Origin: a virus
Taxonomy: Duplodnaviria; Heunggongvirae; Uroviricota; Caudoviricetes
Length of the DNA: 5,159 nucleotides
IMG/VR virus record: IMGVR_UViG_2671180637_000011
Direction: 5' to 3' (one strand)
The position numbers and the translations under genes are program-made. Numbering within the stretch: position 1 is the stretch's first letter; every line of letters starts with the position of its first letter. The notes below the pieces were generated by a model. The model was not told the DNA's origin and did no database searches. It saw nothing but the letters and a program-made list of their open reading frames with translations. Positions 2,750 through 4,850 of this stretch are shown piece by piece.

Positions 2750-2778
2750 TTGAAAATCTGTTGGCGAACACCTATATA
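2750..2778 (+). promoter_or_regulatory. Near-consensus sigma70 promoter inside the cI-OL accessory locus
   Basis: -35 TTGAAA (2750-2755), exactly 17-bp spacer, -10 TATATA (2773-2778). This is the strongest-looking promoter in the window. Predicted start ~2785, only ~7 nt before the GTG of the 36-codon ORF. Confidence 0.4.
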
Positions 2779-2791
2779 AGGAGTATAGTTA

Positions 2792-2902
2792 GTGACCCAA
2801 AACGTATTGCCAATCAACAAGAGCTTGCATGACCGAGCTGTTGATGAATTTAATCGTCTGCATGGAACAATGATTGGCGAGATTAGTGCAATGCTGAAGT
2901 AA
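2792..2902 (+). CDS. Hypothetical micro-protein, 36 aa (MTQNVLPINKSLHDRAVDEFNRLHGTMIGEISAMLK), GTG start
   Basis: Hand translation; below the ORF-track size cutoff. AAGGAG (2778-2783) lies 8 nt upstream of GTG 2792. It is the only ORF with a credible SD between cI and OL. The peptide is not hydrophobic. Coding status is uncertain: the SD overlaps the -10 of the promoter above, so the SD would only be used on cI read-through transcripts. Confidence 0.35.
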   Translation: MTQNVLPINKSLHDRAVDEFNRLHGTMIGEISAMLK

Positions 2903-3016
2903 GCTTTTGGCTGAAATGCGCGGATGTGTAGAGCGCGTTCAAAATCTACGCCGCGACTTTGAAGCTCACATCAATCATTCACAAAAAGCGGCTTGATACT
3001 TAAGTTAGATGACAGA

Positions 3017-3045
3017 ACCCGGCCTCAGCGCCGGGTTTTCTTTGC
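3017..3045 (+). terminator. Intrinsic terminator closing the cI / rex-position transcription unit, just upstream of OL
   Basis: Stem CCCGGC (3018-3023) / GCCGGG (3030-3035) with a 6-nt loop, followed by TTTTCTTT. There is no terminator between the cI stop (2523) and this element, so PRM/PRE transcripts should read through 2524-3016. Confidence 0.8.
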
Positions 3046-3224
3046 CTCACGATCCCCACACCTAATAACACCTTAACCAATTGTATTTATTGAAAAATTG
3101 ATAGATACAACTTTCTAAACCACGAAATTCTGATCCCCCTCAAGTCTCTTCATTCCTTCTGATAAATTCCCGCAATCAAATAAAAAACCATAATAATCAA
3201 CAGGATATTTGAAAACCCAAACAA

Positions 3225-3268
3225 TTTATCATTTTGCTATTGCCATCAGTTTATCATTTCGATAAAGT
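3225..3268 (+). promoter_or_regulatory. OL operators and PL promoter
   Basis: Two 17-bp operator-like sites with the same half-site as OR: TTTATCATTTTGCTATT (3225-3241) and the perfect palindrome TTTATC-ATTTC-GATAAA (3250-3266). PL: -35 TTGCCA (3240-3245), 17-bp spacer, -10 TAAAGT (3263-3268), the same -10 hexamer as PR. It reads into nutL and N. Confidence 0.6.
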
Positions 3269-3314
3269 CAACTCATCAGCAGGACGCTGTAAGCCCAACG
3301 GAGCAGACTGGCAG

Positions 3315-3360
3315 GCTCTTTAAACAACGTCGAACACTCGACTACGTGGCTGAAAAGCCA
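3315..3360 (+). promoter_or_regulatory. nutL (boxA + boxB)
   Basis: boxA GCTCTTTAA (3315-3323); boxB hairpin TGGC-TGAAAA-GCCA (3347-3360). It lies in the PL leader ~100 nt upstream of N. The CTACGTNGCTGAAAAGCNAG core is shared with nutR. Confidence 0.6.
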
Positions 3361-3458
3361 GATCACCCAACCACATAAGCTGTGGGATGCAATGCCGAAG
3401 TAACCGTCTCAGGAGGAGCTTCGAGATTGCATCGCCAAAGTTTATTCGGGAGGAATCT

Positions 3459-3731
3459 ATGTCCAGAAAAACAGAATTTAAAGGCACCGCAGCTTCTCGA
3501 CGTAGAGCTCGTCGCGCAAACCTGCAAAGTCAGGAGGCGATTAGCTCCGACAAGCTACACAGGCCAACCCCTTCACGAGTGGTCTTGCAATGCAAGCGCA
3601 AACCAGCAATGAGAGCAGAAGTTATAACTCTGACAACGTTGACCAGAAAATATGAAGGTTCAACTTGTCTTCCGAACGTAGCTCTTTACGCGGCAGGCTA
3701 CCGGAAATCAAAACAACTGACAGCGAGGTAA
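3459..3731 (+). CDS. N: N-type transcription antitermination protein (90 aa)
   Basis: Arginine-rich motif near the N-terminus (GTAASRRRARRANLQ), typical of boxB-binding N proteins. SD GGGAGG (3448-3453) 5 nt before ATG 3459. First gene after PL and nutL. The track ORF 3387-3731 is the same frame extended upstream to an ATG without an SD; I prefer the 3459 start. Confidence 0.8.
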   Translation: MSRKTEFKGTAASRRRARRANLQSQEAISSDKLHRPTPSRVVLQCKRKPAMRAEVITLTTLTRKYEGSTCLPNVALYAAGYRKSKQLTAR

Positions 3732-3789
3732 CCTGCACTGTTCGCCAGAAAATGAAATTAGGCAGCAAACCACTTATTTGAGGTGATAT

Positions 3790-4239
3790 ATGGAAGAACA
3801 GGCAAATAAGATTCTCATAGAACTATTGCAAAAAGCCAGTAATGGAATAGACGCGGCTGTCTCATTTAGCCAGGCACAGATTCCTGATGTTGTTCATCAG
3901 TTACTGCTATGGAATATGGTTGACAGTCTGATTAAAACATTAATAGCCATTTTAACAATCCCGCTGGTTTTCTGGTTTATGAAGAAACAGTGCCAAAAAG
4001 TTGAAATTGGTAAGTTCGATGATGAAGGATGGTCATGGGATAAGGGGAAGACTAAATACAAACCGACTATGATTTGGGAAAGTAACGGTGAGATTAGTTT
4101 TCTAATCTTACCATTAGCTGCAGTTTTTGTTCTGTGGGTAAGTTTTATTATTGCTGTAGTAACCAATATGACTTGGTTAAAAATTTGGCTGGCCCCAAAG
4201 CTTTACCTTATCGAATATGCAGCATCATTGGTTAAGTAA
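3790..4239 (+). CDS. Hypothetical small inner-membrane protein (149 aa, two predicted TM helices); candidate superinfection-exclusion or abortive-infection function
   Basis: SD GAGGTGA (3780-3786). Hydrophobic segments LIKTLIAILTIPLVFWFM (~aa 47-64) and ISFLILPLAAVFVLWVSFIIAVV (~aa 102-124) are separated by a charged loop (KKQCQKVEIGKFDDEGWSWDKGKTKYK). Immediately downstream of N and followed by its own terminator. No homolog recognised from memory. Confidence 0.75.
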   Translation: MEEQANKILIELLQKASNGIDAAVSFSQAQIPDVVHQLLLWNMVDSLIKTLIAILTIPLVFWFMKKQCQKVEIGKFDDEGWSWDKGKTKYKPTMIWESNGEISFLILPLAAVFVLWVSFIIAVVTNMTWLKIWLAPKLYLIEYAASLVK

Positions 4240-4243
4240 TTTT

Positions 4244-4269
4244 AGGCCGCATAGTCGGCCTTTATTTTT
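4244..4269 (+). terminator. Intrinsic terminator after the membrane-protein gene
   Basis: Stem AGGCCG (4244-4249) / CGGCCT (4256-4261) with loop CATAGT, followed by TTATTTTT. Confidence 0.7.
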
Positions 4270-4386
4270 GGCATAAACAACAGAATAAACACTGCACTGT
4301 GCATTCATTCCAACGAGTGAATACACGGAGAAATGTCGCTCATAATTAAACAGGAGCCGACTTGTTCTGATTATTGGAAATCTTCT

Positions 4387-4415
4387 TTGCCCTCCGATGT
4401 GAGGGCAATTTTTTA
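4387..4415 (+). terminator. Second intrinsic terminator, immediately upstream of the 122-aa gene
   Basis: Stem TTGCCCTC (4387-4394) / GAGGGCAA (4401-4408) with loop CGATGT, followed by TTTTTT (4409-4414). Confidence 0.7.
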
Positions 4416-4434
4416 TCTATGAGGATATGAATAG

Positions 4435-4803
4435 ATGTCAAACATCAAAAAATACATCATTGATTACGACTGGAAAGCATCAATAGAAATTGAAATCGAC
4501 CATGACGTAATGACAGAGGAAAAACTTCACCAGATTAATAATTTCTGGTCAGACTCTGAATACCGACTCAATAAACACGGCTCTGTATTAAATGCTGTAT
4601 TAATCATGCTGGCGCAACATGCTCTGCTTATAGCAATTTCAAGCGACTTAAATGCATATGGTGTTGTGTGTGAGTTCGACTGGAATGATGGAAATGGTCA
4701 GGAAGGATGGCCTCCAATGGATGGTAGCGAAGGAATAAGAATTACCGATATCGATACATCAGGAATATTTGATTCAGATGATATGACTATCAAAGCCGCC
4801 TGA
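4435..4803 (+). CDS. Hypothetical acidic protein (122 aa, about 22 Asp/Glu vs 8 Lys/Arg; Asp-rich C-terminus)
   Basis: ORF from the track with SD GAGGA (4421-4425) 9 nt before the ATG. Strongly acidic composition, especially DWNDGNGQEGWPPMDGSEGIRITDIDTSGIFDSDDM. Bracketed by terminator-like hairpins. No homolog recognised from memory. Confidence 0.7.
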   Translation: MSNIKKYIIDYDWKASIEIEIDHDVMTEEKLHQINNFWSDSEYRLNKHGSVLNAVLIMLAQHALLIAISSDLNAYGVVCEFDWNDGNGQEGWPPMDGSEGIRITDIDTSGIFDSDDMTIKAA

Positions 4804-4826: not shown

Positions 4827-4850
4827 AACGCTTCACTCGAGGCGTTTTTC
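4827..4850 (+). terminator. Terminator-like hairpin after the acidic-protein gene
   Basis: Stem AACGCTTC (4827-4834) / GAGGCGTT (4839-4846) with one G-U pair and loop ACTC, followed by TTTCG. Weaker than the other terminators. Confidence 0.45.

What the first reader, a model, noticed from the sequence alone, without database searches (positions are those of the whole stretch)
3790..4239. Two-helix membrane protein encoded immediately after N and closed by its own terminator: candidate exclusion or abortive-infection effector
Directly downstream of N, where lambdoid phages keep non-essential accessory genes, is a 149-aa protein with a ~45-aa cytoplasmic N-terminus, two strongly hydrophobic helices and a lysine-rich connecting loop. 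Small two-TM phage proteins at this position are typically membrane-depolarising or injection-blocking exclusion factors. I do not recognise it as any named protein.
Basis: partly seen in the sequence, partly recalled or inferred. Interest (0 to 1): 0.6.

Follow-up and report, generated by a model that had tools for sequence, protein, structure and literature searches.

The report
Uncharacterised early phage membrane protein
The ORF after N is a real, conserved two-helix inner-membrane protein from a very large phage family (Shigella phage Sf6 gene 34 type) whose function nobody has tested; its role in excluding other phages is plausible but unproven.

Summary
Window 3790-4239(+) encodes a 149-aa protein with two hydrophobic helices, directly after N and followed by a hairpin plus T-run.

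It is a genuine gene: dN/dS is 0.10-0.31. It belongs to PHROG 3054 (Sf6 gene 34 protein, phi92 gp220). This family has about 1,900 clusters at 50% identity, has no Pfam, NCBIfam or PADLOC model, and has no structural relative.

- **Conservation:** it sits in the N-terminal 45 residues and the C-terminal 21 residues. The helices and the loop (8-49 aa) vary.
- **Topology:** charge distribution favours a cytoplasmic loop and periplasmic termini.
- **Mobility:** the gene is a single-gene cassette of RBS, ORF and often a terminator. It occurs after N, ral or sieB, after the lysis genes, inside structural modules on the opposite strand, and in virulent N4-like and phi92-like phages.
- **Expression here:** I found no promoter of its own, and it lies between the cI-repressed pL/nutL/N and the first terminator. 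It should therefore be made immediately on infection or induction, not in the lysogen.

This disfavours a lysogen-expressed abortive-infection effector. My best guess (about 0.35) is an infection-phase envelope factor that works like T4 Imm. A factor aimed at a host membrane target is nearly as likely. No evidence here tests the function directly.

The parts
3222..3268 (+). OL operators (3222-3239, 3247-3264) overlapping the pL promoter-like site TTGCCA-17-TAAAGT (3240-3268)
   Evidence: An 18-nt TTTATCATTTTGATA-like motif is repeated in OR (1732-1749, 1781-1798) and here. The sequence was read.
3316..3342 (+). Putative nutL: boxA-like CTCTTTAA followed by a boxB-like hairpin GTCGAACACTCGAC
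   Evidence: Read from the sequence. The hairpin at 3329-3342 was also picked up. Assignment rests on resemblance to the lambda nut layout, from my own knowledge; it was not tested.
3459..3731 (+). Antiterminator N (90 aa)
   Evidence: Pfam N_peptide E=3.4e-32, full length. PHROG 271.
3732..3789 (+). N-to-target spacer with no terminator. It is a remnant of the 3' end of another N allele and carries the SD GAGGTGA (3780-3786).
   Evidence: No terminator-like site on the + strand. Folding is no better than shuffles, z=-0.17. In L027, L026 and HF4s the same sequence encodes the N C-terminus, and the N stop codon TGA lies inside the target's SD.
3790..4239 (+). Target gene: 149-aa two-TM protein, PHROG 3054 / Sf6 gene 34 family
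   Evidence: ORF. phrog_3054 E=4e-61. Homologues. dN/dS 0.10-0.31. AlphaFold2 mean pLDDT 91.
3790..3924 (+). Residues 1-45: conserved acidic N-terminal helical segment (near-invariant L9, F26, P32, V34, Q37, L38, L39, W41)
   Evidence: Alignment A1. dN/dS 0.03-0.07. Mean net charge -3.8.
3925..3981 (+). Residues 46-64: TM helix 1
   Evidence: Hydropathy peak 2.0. Part of the continuous helix 2-68 in the model.
3982..4092 (+). Residues 65-101: variable loop, basic at its start (KKQCQK) and acidic at its end. In the long-loop subfamily it carries a small beta element and a W..YKPT..D..GD motif.
   Evidence: Loop length 8-49 aa across the family. K/R cluster right after TM1. Strands 72-75 and 88-90.
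4093..4173 (+). Residues 102-128: TM helix 2, the fastest-evolving part
   Evidence: Hydropathy peak 2.8. dN/dS 0.6-1.5 against HF4s and Oslo.
4174..4236 (+). Residues 129-149: conserved C-terminal tail WLKIWLAPKLYLIEYAASLVK (near-invariant I132, A135, P136, K137, L140, E142, Y143, L147)
   Evidence: Alignment A1. dN/dS 0-0.08. Two short helices, 128-134 and 136-148.
4244..4270 (+). Hairpin AGGCCG-CATAGT-CGGCCT plus T-run: the first terminator-like site of the pL transcript
   Evidence: -9.6 kcal/mol. Conserved after the gene in HF4s, HK633 and Sf6. Different hairpins stand in the same place in Oslo, L013, K366, L108 and L119.
4243..4434 (+). Lambdoid boundary / tL2-type intergenic region, including the strong hairpin 4387-4408 plus T-run
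   Evidence: About 94% identical to the lambda ral-ea10 intergenic region and found in 326 phage records. Sf6 annotates the second hairpin as tL2A. -13.2 kcal/mol, z=-4.1.

Best explanation
**What it is (well supported)**
- It is a real accessory gene for a small inner-membrane protein of the uncharacterised PHROG 3054 / Sf6 gene 34 family.
- Two transmembrane helices form a hairpin. The conserved 45-residue N-terminal helix and the conserved 21-residue C-terminal tail lie on the same side of the membrane.
- The variable loop begins with a cluster of basic residues and lies on the other side.
- In this prophage the gene is co-transcribed with N from the cI-repressed pL promoter, ahead of the first terminator-like site. 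It should therefore be made within minutes of infection or induction, without needing N, and should be silent in the stable lysogen.

**How it most likely works (inferred, not shown)**
- The loop stays in the cytoplasm, and the acidic N-terminus and the C-tail face the periplasm.
- There they form a small juxtamembrane bundle with a protruding helix that probably oligomerises.
- This module acts on its own, with no partner gene, at the envelope of the already infected cell.
- It would block a step that later-arriving phages need to deliver their DNA across the inner membrane. T4 Imm does this by binding the tape measure protein.
- Because the module is conserved across phages with unrelated tails, its target is more likely a conserved envelope component than a phage-specific ejection protein.
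For: **Gene reality and family:**

**Membrane hairpin:** (hydropathy; pLDDT 91; helices 2-68, 106-125, 128-134, 136-148).

**Conservation pattern:**

**Topology:** K+R within 15 residues of the helices averages 4.7 in the loop and 2.1 in the N and C flanks. The N-terminal segment has a mean net charge of -3.8. Even 8-residue loops begin with K or R.

**Early, cI-repressed expression**
- Operators and pL lie at 3222-3268.
- There is no terminator between N and the gene.
- In some relatives the N stop codon lies inside the gene's SD.
- No conserved promoter lies upstream.

**Autonomous cassette with no conserved partner:** neighbours vary in 80 close loci and 24 diverse loci.

**Moron-like behaviour**
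- Terminator enrichment: 13/30 against 51/421, p=5e-5.
- Opposite-strand insertions in structural modules. L013 has a promoter-like site of its own; in Vibrio phage K366 only the orientation and a terminator-like hairpin were seen.
- In K366 a neighbouring opposite-strand unit is annotated 'immunity to superinfection'.

**Presence in virulent phages**, where only an infection-phase role makes sense.

**Functional precedent:** T4 Imm is a small, early inner-membrane protein with a periplasmic N-terminus that binds the tape measure protein (bioRxiv 10.64898/2026.03.06.709160). HK97 gp15 is cited there as a similar case.
Against: - No experiment or homology links the family to exclusion. Every database name is 'hypothetical'.
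- There is no match to annotated exclusion PHROGs, Pfam families or PADLOC models.
- Known injection blockers (SieA, Imm, gp15) track one phage type. This family keeps the same N/C module in podo-, sipho- and myoviruses of Escherichia, Vibrio and Pseudomonas. That fits a conserved host target better than a phage target.
- In several lineages the gene sits right after holin, endolysin and Rz, once with an ATGA overlap with Rz. This implies late expression there, which would be of little use for exclusion.
- The topology rests only on the positive-inside rule. Total K+R counts are nearly tied (loop 5.0 against N+C 4.9). No dedicated predictor could be run.
- The AlphaFold model is a monomer and says nothing about partners.
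Confidence: 0.35

Rival explanations
1. It is a host-takeover or counter-defence factor. The conserved N/C module binds and inhibits, or redirects, a conserved host inner-membrane component such as a protease complex, a division or envelope-synthesis protein, or a membrane-bound defence effector. This would match the other pL-operon products, which each neutralise one host protein.
For: - The N/C module is conserved across phages of different genera and morphotypes.
- In the lambdoids it lies among ral, cIII, kil and gam. By established knowledge these target EcoKI, FtsH, FtsZ and RecBCD.
- In N4-like and phi92-like virulent phages it lies in early or middle regions.
- It has immediate-early timing.
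Against: - No partner or target is identified.
- No similarity to any known inhibitor was found.
- Opposite-strand, terminator-bounded insertions inside structural modules are more typical of exclusion or conversion morons.
- The fast-evolving TM2 and loop are not explained.
Confidence: 0.27
2. It is a prophage-expressed abortive-infection or exclusion effector. The lysogen would make it at a low level, and a superinfecting phage would trigger it to depolarise the membrane, like RexB or SieB.
For: - It is a small two-TM protein in the accessory region next to N, where lambda and P22 keep sieB.
- It behaves as a moron-like cassette with a terminator.
- It has a promoter-like site of its own in one non-lambdoid context.
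Against: - It lies inside the cI-repressed pL transcript, and no promoter was found between pL and the gene.
- It is present in virulent phages.
- It co-occurs with SieB in Oslo and in at least 9 of 80 loci.
- It has no PADLOC, SieB or RexB similarity.
- The extramembrane module is under strong purifying selection, while the TM helices that a pore-former would rely on are not.
Confidence: 0.08
3. It is a lysis-timing or envelope-stability regulator. The membrane protein would modulate a holin or spanin, or protect the envelope until programmed lysis.
For: - It is repeatedly placed directly after holin, endolysin and Rz in independent lineages: L119 with an ATGA overlap with Rz, L108, L106, and PhiR46_1-type phages (7 of 80 close loci).
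- It is a membrane hairpin with a probable periplasmic module.
Against: - The region after Rz is a general moron hot-spot, from my own knowledge; the same region carries bor in lambda.
- About 90% of close copies are in the early-left operon.
- The phages carrying the family have unrelated lysis systems.
- No similarity to holin or antiholin PHROGs was found.
Confidence: 0.1
4. It is a chance ORF or a decaying pseudogene with no function.
For: No functional annotation exists anywhere.
Against: - dN/dS is 0.10-0.31 overall and 0.03-0.08 in the termini.
- There are 1,866 clusters of full-length homologues.
- The RBS is conserved.
- The fold is predicted with high confidence.
Confidence: 0.01

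Closest known systems
Sf6 gene 34 protein / PHROG 3054 / phi92 gp220 (uncharacterised phage membrane protein family)
   Same: - Full-length HMM match, E=4e-61.
- Same length class, two TM helices and the same conserved N- and C-terminal motifs.
- Sf6 gp34 also lies in the pL operon, in front of the same boundary/tL2A sequence.
   Different: Nothing essential. Sf6 gp34 follows ral rather than N, and it belongs to a variant with a different central TM1-loop-TM2 segment. No member has a known function.
T4 Imm (superinfection immunity protein)
   Same: It is a small inner-membrane protein made early in infection. It acts alone, and its N-terminus is periplasmic (bioRxiv 10.64898/2026.03.06.709160). 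The topology inferred here agrees with this.
   Different: - Imm is 83 aa with a compact helical core in the membrane.
- Imm is confined to T-even phages and binds their tape measure protein, whereas this family spans many phage types.
HK97 gp15 (moron-encoded superinfection exclusion protein)
   Same: It is a single small membrane protein. Family members here are likewise carried as insertions, in some phages on the opposite strand inside structural gene clusters. The moron concept is described in PMC3594210 (listed), and gp15 is cited.
   Different: - In this window the gene has no promoter of its own and is under pL control, whereas gp15 is expressed from the prophage.
- No hit to any annotated exclusion family was found. 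gp15 itself was not compared.
SieB of lambda and P22 (Pfam PF14163)
   Same: It is a membrane-associated accessory protein encoded next to N in lambdoid phages.
   Different: - No similarity: BLASTP E>2, and lambda SieB hits PF14163 while the target does not.
- sieB is on the opposite strand to N.
- Both genes occur together in Oslo and in other prophages.
P22 SieA
   Same: It is an inner-membrane protein of about 160 aa that blocks DNA injection (PMC10883804).
   Different: SieA has three predicted TM helices and a cytoplasmic FxRYPxEAxxFNK motif, lies between genes 16 and 9, and is restricted to P22-like prophages. None of this applies here.

Membership tests
PHROG 3054 (Sf6 gene 34 protein family, function unknown) | Full-length match to the family profile | tested here: met
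   phrog_3054 E=4.2e-61, residues 1-149 on profile positions 1-137 of 137. All 138 distant representatives also hit phrog_3054. Sf6 gp34 was recovered by tblastn.
PHROG 3054 (Sf6 gene 34 protein family, function unknown) | Architecture: conserved N-terminal ~45 aa, TM hairpin with a variable loop, conserved C-terminal APKLYLIEYAASL tail | tested here: met
   Alignments A1 and A5, hydropathy and the model.
SieB (Pfam PF14163) | Match to the SieB profile or to lambda SieB | tested here: not met
   No Pfam hit at E<=1, while lambda SieB scores 1e-29 on PF14163. BLASTP against lambda SieB gives E=2.6.
SieB (Pfam PF14163) | Occupies the sieB slot as an alternative allele | tested here: not met
   It co-occurs with sieB in phage Oslo and in at least 9 of 80 close loci. 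sieB is on the opposite strand.
SieA (P22) | Three TM helices, FxRYPxEAxxFNK motif, location between genes 16 and 9 | tested here: not met
   The target has two hydrophobic segments only, the motif is absent from the sequence, and the gene lies in the early-left operon. Family features are from PMC10883804.
T4 Imm-type superinfection immunity | Sequence or fold similarity to Imm or to any annotated immunity/exclusion family | tested here: not met
   Pfam at E<=1 gave no family. The only PHROG hit is the unannotated phrog_3054. PDB and BFVD fold searches returned nothing annotated.
T4 Imm-type superinfection immunity | Blocks genome entry of a superinfecting phage by binding its tape measure or ejection protein | not testable with these tools
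   This needs plating, DNA-entry and binding assays.
Moron (independent transcription unit added to a phage genome) | Present or absent between otherwise closely related genomes, and found at different genome positions | tested here: met
   BP-4795 (97-98% identical flanks) carries an unrelated ORF in the same slot. An 88%-identical copy lies between Rz and Nu1 in PhiR46_1. Opposite-strand copies lie in structural modules.
Moron (independent transcription unit added to a phage genome) | Own terminator | tested here: met
   Hairpin plus T-run at 4244-4270. Family-wide enrichment is 13/30 against 51/421, p=5e-5.
Moron (independent transcription unit added to a phage genome) | Own promoter, allowing expression from the repressed prophage | tested here: not met
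   No promoter-like site lies between pL (3240-3268) and the ATG. The conserved upstream boundary is ~28 nt and holds only the RBS. A promoter-like site does exist in the non-lambdoid context L013. The scan is consensus-based, so a weak promoter cannot be excluded.
Known anti-phage defence systems (PADLOC-DB v2) | Match to any defence-protein model | tested here: not met
   No family at E<=1.
Holins / antiholins | Match to a holin or antiholin family, and a location in the lysis cassette | tested here: not met
   No holin PHROG or Pfam hit. In this window the gene is in the immediate-early transcript, where a holin would be lethal (inference). Some relatives do lie just after Rz.

The most novel reading that the evidence does not exclude
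PHROG 3054 is a widespread, unrecognised class of phage envelope factor. A TM hairpin presents a conserved periplasmic (or cytoplasmic) N/C-terminal module that targets one conserved inner-membrane or periplasmic component of Gammaproteobacteria. This would give phages of unrelated morphotypes a shared, generic way to close the infected cell to further infection or to disarm a membrane-based host response. Its swappable central TM1-loop-TM2 segment would tune specificity.
Probability: 0.25. Interest if true: 0.7.

Novelty: new member of a known kind. Interest (0 to 1): 0.4.

Why it matters
**The family**
- It is large: 1,866 clusters at 50% identity.
- It is under purifying selection.
- It is shared by temperate lambdoid and P22-like phages and by virulent N4-like and phi92-like phages.
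- It occurs in about 2-4% of complete E. coli genomes, including Stx-converting phages.
- It has no Pfam or NCBIfam model, no structural relative and no tested function.

**Why this copy is useful**
- It sits in the immediate-early transcript of a lambdoid prophage, which makes it easy to handle genetically.
- A deletion or an inducible clone would quickly show whether it is an exclusion factor, a host-takeover factor or a lysis modulator.
- Whatever the answer, it would annotate thousands of phage genes and would be relevant to phage-cocktail design.

As it stands, the finding is an ordinary member of an already catalogued 'hypothetical' family, not a new kind of system.

Tried and rejected
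**Database searches that led nowhere**
- Pfam, NCBIfam and PADLOC scans of the protein gave nothing.
- Pfam scans of 138 distant members gave only scattered TM-segment noise.
- A profile search of PDB sequences gave only spurious GPCR TM matches with E>=0.09.
- Foldseek against PDB gave nothing with E<2.
- Foldseek against BFVD returned only uncharacterised family members such as Pseudomonas phage Bjorn.
- The AFDB50 library was unavailable.
- A profile search of 5.8 billion proteins returned only 'hypothetical protein' names.

**Specific homology ideas rejected**
- Homology to lambda SieB.
- Homology to BP-4795 ORF18.
- P22 SieA, by comparing architecture and motif.

**Literature**
- Searches for the PHROG number, Sf6 gp34, lambdoid or N-adjacent membrane proteins, N4-like exclusion and P22-like early-left accessory genes found no paper on this family.

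**Context analyses**
- A search for a conserved partner gene in 80 close and 24 diverse loci found none.
- A search for the gene's own promoter found none in the lambdoid contexts.
- I considered a holin and rejected it because of the gene's position in the immediate-early transcript and the absence of similarity.
Full report
**The window.** The window is the immunity and early-left region of a lambdoid prophage, in the reverse of lambda map order.
- Genes in order: O (66-1004, -), cII (1037-1333, -), cro (1472-1705, -), cI (1819-2523, +), N (3459-3731, +), the target ORF (3790-4239, +), an ea10/DUF2528 gene (4435-4803, +), then cIII and kil.
- An 18-nt operator-like motif (TTTATCATTTTGATA type) occurs between cro and cI (1732-1749, 1781-1798) and again at 3222-3239 and 3247-3264.
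- At the second site it overlaps the promoter-like TTGCCA-17-TAAAGT at 3240-3268. I take this to be OL/pL.
- A boxA-like CTCTTTAA and a boxB-like hairpin follow at 3316-3342.
- The window is identical in this gene to E. coli SLK172.
- It matches phage BP-4795 at about 97-98% over ~75% of its length.

- The ORF, its coordinates and its length are as stated.
- A GAGGTGA Shine-Dalgarno sequence precedes the ATG.
- Hydropathy shows two segments, residues ~46-64 (peak 2.0) and ~102-128 (peak 2.8).
- The loop has 8 lysines in 37 residues.
- A hairpin at 4244-4261 with a T-run follows the stop codon. It folds at -9.6 kcal/mol, which is modest.

**The gene is real.**
- Against the copies in phages HF4s, Oslo and PhiR46_1, dN/dS is 0.10-0.31 overall.
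- By region, dN/dS is 0.03-0.08 in the N-terminal 45 and C-terminal 21 residues, 0.25-0.4 in the loop, and 0.6-1.5 in TM2 (against HF4s and Oslo).

**Family.**
- The protein has no Pfam, NCBIfam or PADLOC match.
- It matches PHROG 3054, 'unknown function', over its full length at E=4e-61.
- Sf6 'gene 34 protein' and phi92 gp220 are members.
- A word-indexed search found 520 homologues.
- An exhaustive phmmer scan of 1.84 billion representatives found 1,866 clusters at E<=1e-3 and 564 at E<=1e-10, mostly 120-165 aa.
- All source names are 'hypothetical'.
- In the phage collection, homologues occur in 181 records. These include lambdoid and Stx phages, P22-like phages, N4-like Schitoviridae of Salmonella and Vibrio, ~148-kb phi92-like myoviruses, and Vibrio, Klebsiella, Pseudomonas and Rheinheimera phages.
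- DNA matches occur in 242 of 5,426 complete E. coli genomes.
- Protein matches occur on 23 plasmid records, mostly ~46-48 kb and non-mobilizable, which probably are phage-plasmids.

**Anatomy of the protein.**
- In an alignment of 138 representatives, every near-invariant position lies in one of two places: residues 1-46 (L9, F26, P32, V34, Q37, L38, L39, W41) or residues 129-149 (I132, A135, P136, K137, L140, E142, Y143, L147).
- The helices vary, apart from small residues at fixed positions. The loop ranges from 8 to 49 residues.
- AlphaFold2 with this alignment gives a confident monomer (pLDDT 91, pTM 0.67). It has one long helix (2-68) running from the N-terminus through TM1, a small beta element in the loop, TM2 (106-125), and two short C-terminal helices.
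- Nothing annotated resembles the model in PDB or BFVD.

**Topology.**
- Lysine and arginine cluster immediately after TM1 in essentially all members, including those with 8-residue loops.
- Within 15 residues of the helices, the loop averages 4.7 K+R and the N and C flanks together average 2.1.
- The N-terminal segment has a mean net charge of -3.8.
- Total K+R counts are nearly tied, and I could not run a dedicated predictor. I put this topology at roughly 60-65%.

**The gene is a mobile single-gene cassette.**
- Homology between the window, HF4s, HK633, Oslo and many prophages starts about 10-28 nt before the ATG, at the RBS. It ends just after the stop codon or its hairpin.
- In the window, the 58-nt spacer after N is a remnant of the 3' end of a different N allele. 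In L027, L026 and HF4s that sequence is still coding, and the N stop codon lies inside the target's Shine-Dalgarno sequence.
- Where the gene follows ral or an HK633_045-like gene, it is flanked on both sides by the lambdoid boundary sequence GGCCTTTATTTTTGGC.
- Of 80 close relatives in IMG/VR, about 72 lie in the early-left region.
  - Upstream neighbours vary: N, ral, opposite-strand sieB, Sf6 gp36-like, HK633_045-like.
  - Downstream neighbours vary: ea10, Sf6 gp33-like, BP-4795 ORF18-like, cIII.
  - Seven lie between the lysis genes and terminase, as in PhiR46_1.
- In more distant phages the gene occurs in several further settings:
  - on the opposite strand inside head or tail modules (L013 and Vibrio phage K366), with a promoter-like site of its own in L013 and a terminator-like hairpin in both;
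  - directly after holin, endolysin and Rz, once with an ATGA overlap with Rz;
  - in early or middle regions of virulent N4-like and phi92-like phages.
- No neighbour is conserved, so it should act alone.
- A terminator-like hairpin lies within 75 nt of the stop codon in 13 of 30 diverse contexts, against 51 of 421 for other ORFs in the same loci (Fisher p=5e-5).
- The 121-aa variant in HK633 and SPN9CC keeps both gene ends at ~92% DNA identity but has a different centre. The TM1-loop-TM2 segment is therefore itself exchangeable.

**The 'own terminator'.**
- The left arm of the hairpin belongs to the cassette.
- The right arm, the T-run and the next ~190 nt are ~94% identical to the lambda ral-ea10 intergenic region and occur in 326 phage records.
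- The stronger hairpin at 4387-4408 (-13.2 kcal/mol, z=-4.1) corresponds to the one Sf6 annotates as tL2A.
- No terminator lies between N and the gene.
- The gene therefore belongs to the same N-independent, immediate-early, cI-repressed transcript as N. This is an inference from sequence; no transcript data were available.

**What this means for function.**
- *A lysogen-expressed abortive-infection or exclusion effector is disfavoured.* No promoter was found, the gene is under OL/pL control, homologues occur in virulent phages, it co-occurs with sieB, it has no similarity to SieB, SieA or any PADLOC model, and selection acts on the extramembrane module rather than on the helices.
- *An infection-phase role is what the anatomy allows.* Small inner-membrane phage proteins that act alone are most often superinfection-exclusion factors. 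The closest functional precedent is T4 Imm: it is early, small, has a periplasmic N-terminus, and binds the tape measure protein to stop genome translocation.
- *My commitment.* I take an Imm-like, infection-phase envelope block as the single most likely mechanism, at about 0.35.
- *The main difficulty.* The conserved module is shared by phages with unrelated delivery machines. This argues for a conserved envelope or host target.
- *The main rival.* A host-directed takeover or counter-defence factor is therefore nearly as likely (about 0.27). It fits the company the gene keeps in the pL operon: ral, cIII, kil and gam.
- *A further rival.* The recurrent position after lysis genes keeps a lysis-related role alive (about 0.1), although that region is a general insertion hot-spot.

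**Novelty.** The gene is an ordinary member of an already catalogued but uncharacterised family. It is not a new kind of system and not a member of any named exclusion family. Its interest lies in the size and breadth of that family and in how easily this copy could be tested.

Noticed in passing
window 2761-3040: A small unit lies between cI and OL, in the slot where lambda has rexAB. It has a promoter-like TTGGCG-17-TATAGT (2761-2789), a GTG ORF of only 36 aa (2792-2903), and a strong hairpin CCCGGC..GCCGGG plus T-run near 3018-3040. Relative to L008, the window has a 301-bp deletion at ~2898 that truncates a 120-aa gene of phrog_13858, function unknown. L010 shares the deletion. BP-4795 carries a HigB-like toxin, an HTH regulator and ORF20 in this slot instead.
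   Followed up: partly
window 3790 compared with L003 (BP-4795) 5415-5885: BP-4795 ORF18 (156 aa, phrog_1636, function unknown) starts at exactly the position of the target's ATG, in flanks that are 91-98% identical. The two unrelated genes are therefore alternative cassettes in one slot. In other prophages an ORF18-like gene lies just downstream of the target, so the two also co-occur.
   Followed up: partly
window 3732-3789; L027, L026, L001: The N-to-target spacer is homologous to the coding 3' end of a different N allele. It marks a mosaic joint just after the window's own N stop codon. In the other allele the N stop codon TGA lies inside the target's Shine-Dalgarno sequence, which suggests translational coupling of N and the target in those phages.
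   Followed up: partly
L002 (HK633) 3001-3366; SPN9CC and about 19 other phage records: A 121-aa variant keeps the first ~90 nt and the last ~90 nt at ~92% DNA identity, but its TM1-loop-TM2 centre is unalignable. This is an intragenic mosaic. In HK633 the gene is annotated only as a 58-aa fragment (HK633_044), and its true start overlaps HK633_045. This is probably a mis-annotation.
   Followed up: partly
window 2887-2918 and 3346-3403: Short direct repeats (TGCAATGC[T/C]GAAGTAA and G/TTGGCTGAAAA/TG) link the end of the truncated 36-aa ORF region to the N leader and start region. They may be traces of the recombination that made the deletion, or they may be chance.
   Followed up: no
window 3387-3731 versus 3459-3731: The mechanical ORF list gives a 114-aa N starting at 3387. 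The Pfam N_peptide model covers the 90-aa version from the ATG at 3459 end to end, and gene callers on identical contigs use that start.
   Followed up: partly
L017 (Vibrio phage K366) 266-680 and 3001-3405: The tail gene cluster of this Vibrio phage carries two separate opposite-strand insertions. One is the PHROG 3054 gene. The other is a 64-aa gene annotated 'immunity to superinfection' together with a hypothetical gene.
   Followed up: no
window 4827-4846: A further terminator-like hairpin with a T-run lies just after the ea10/DUF2528 gene, immediately before cIII and kil.
   Followed up: no
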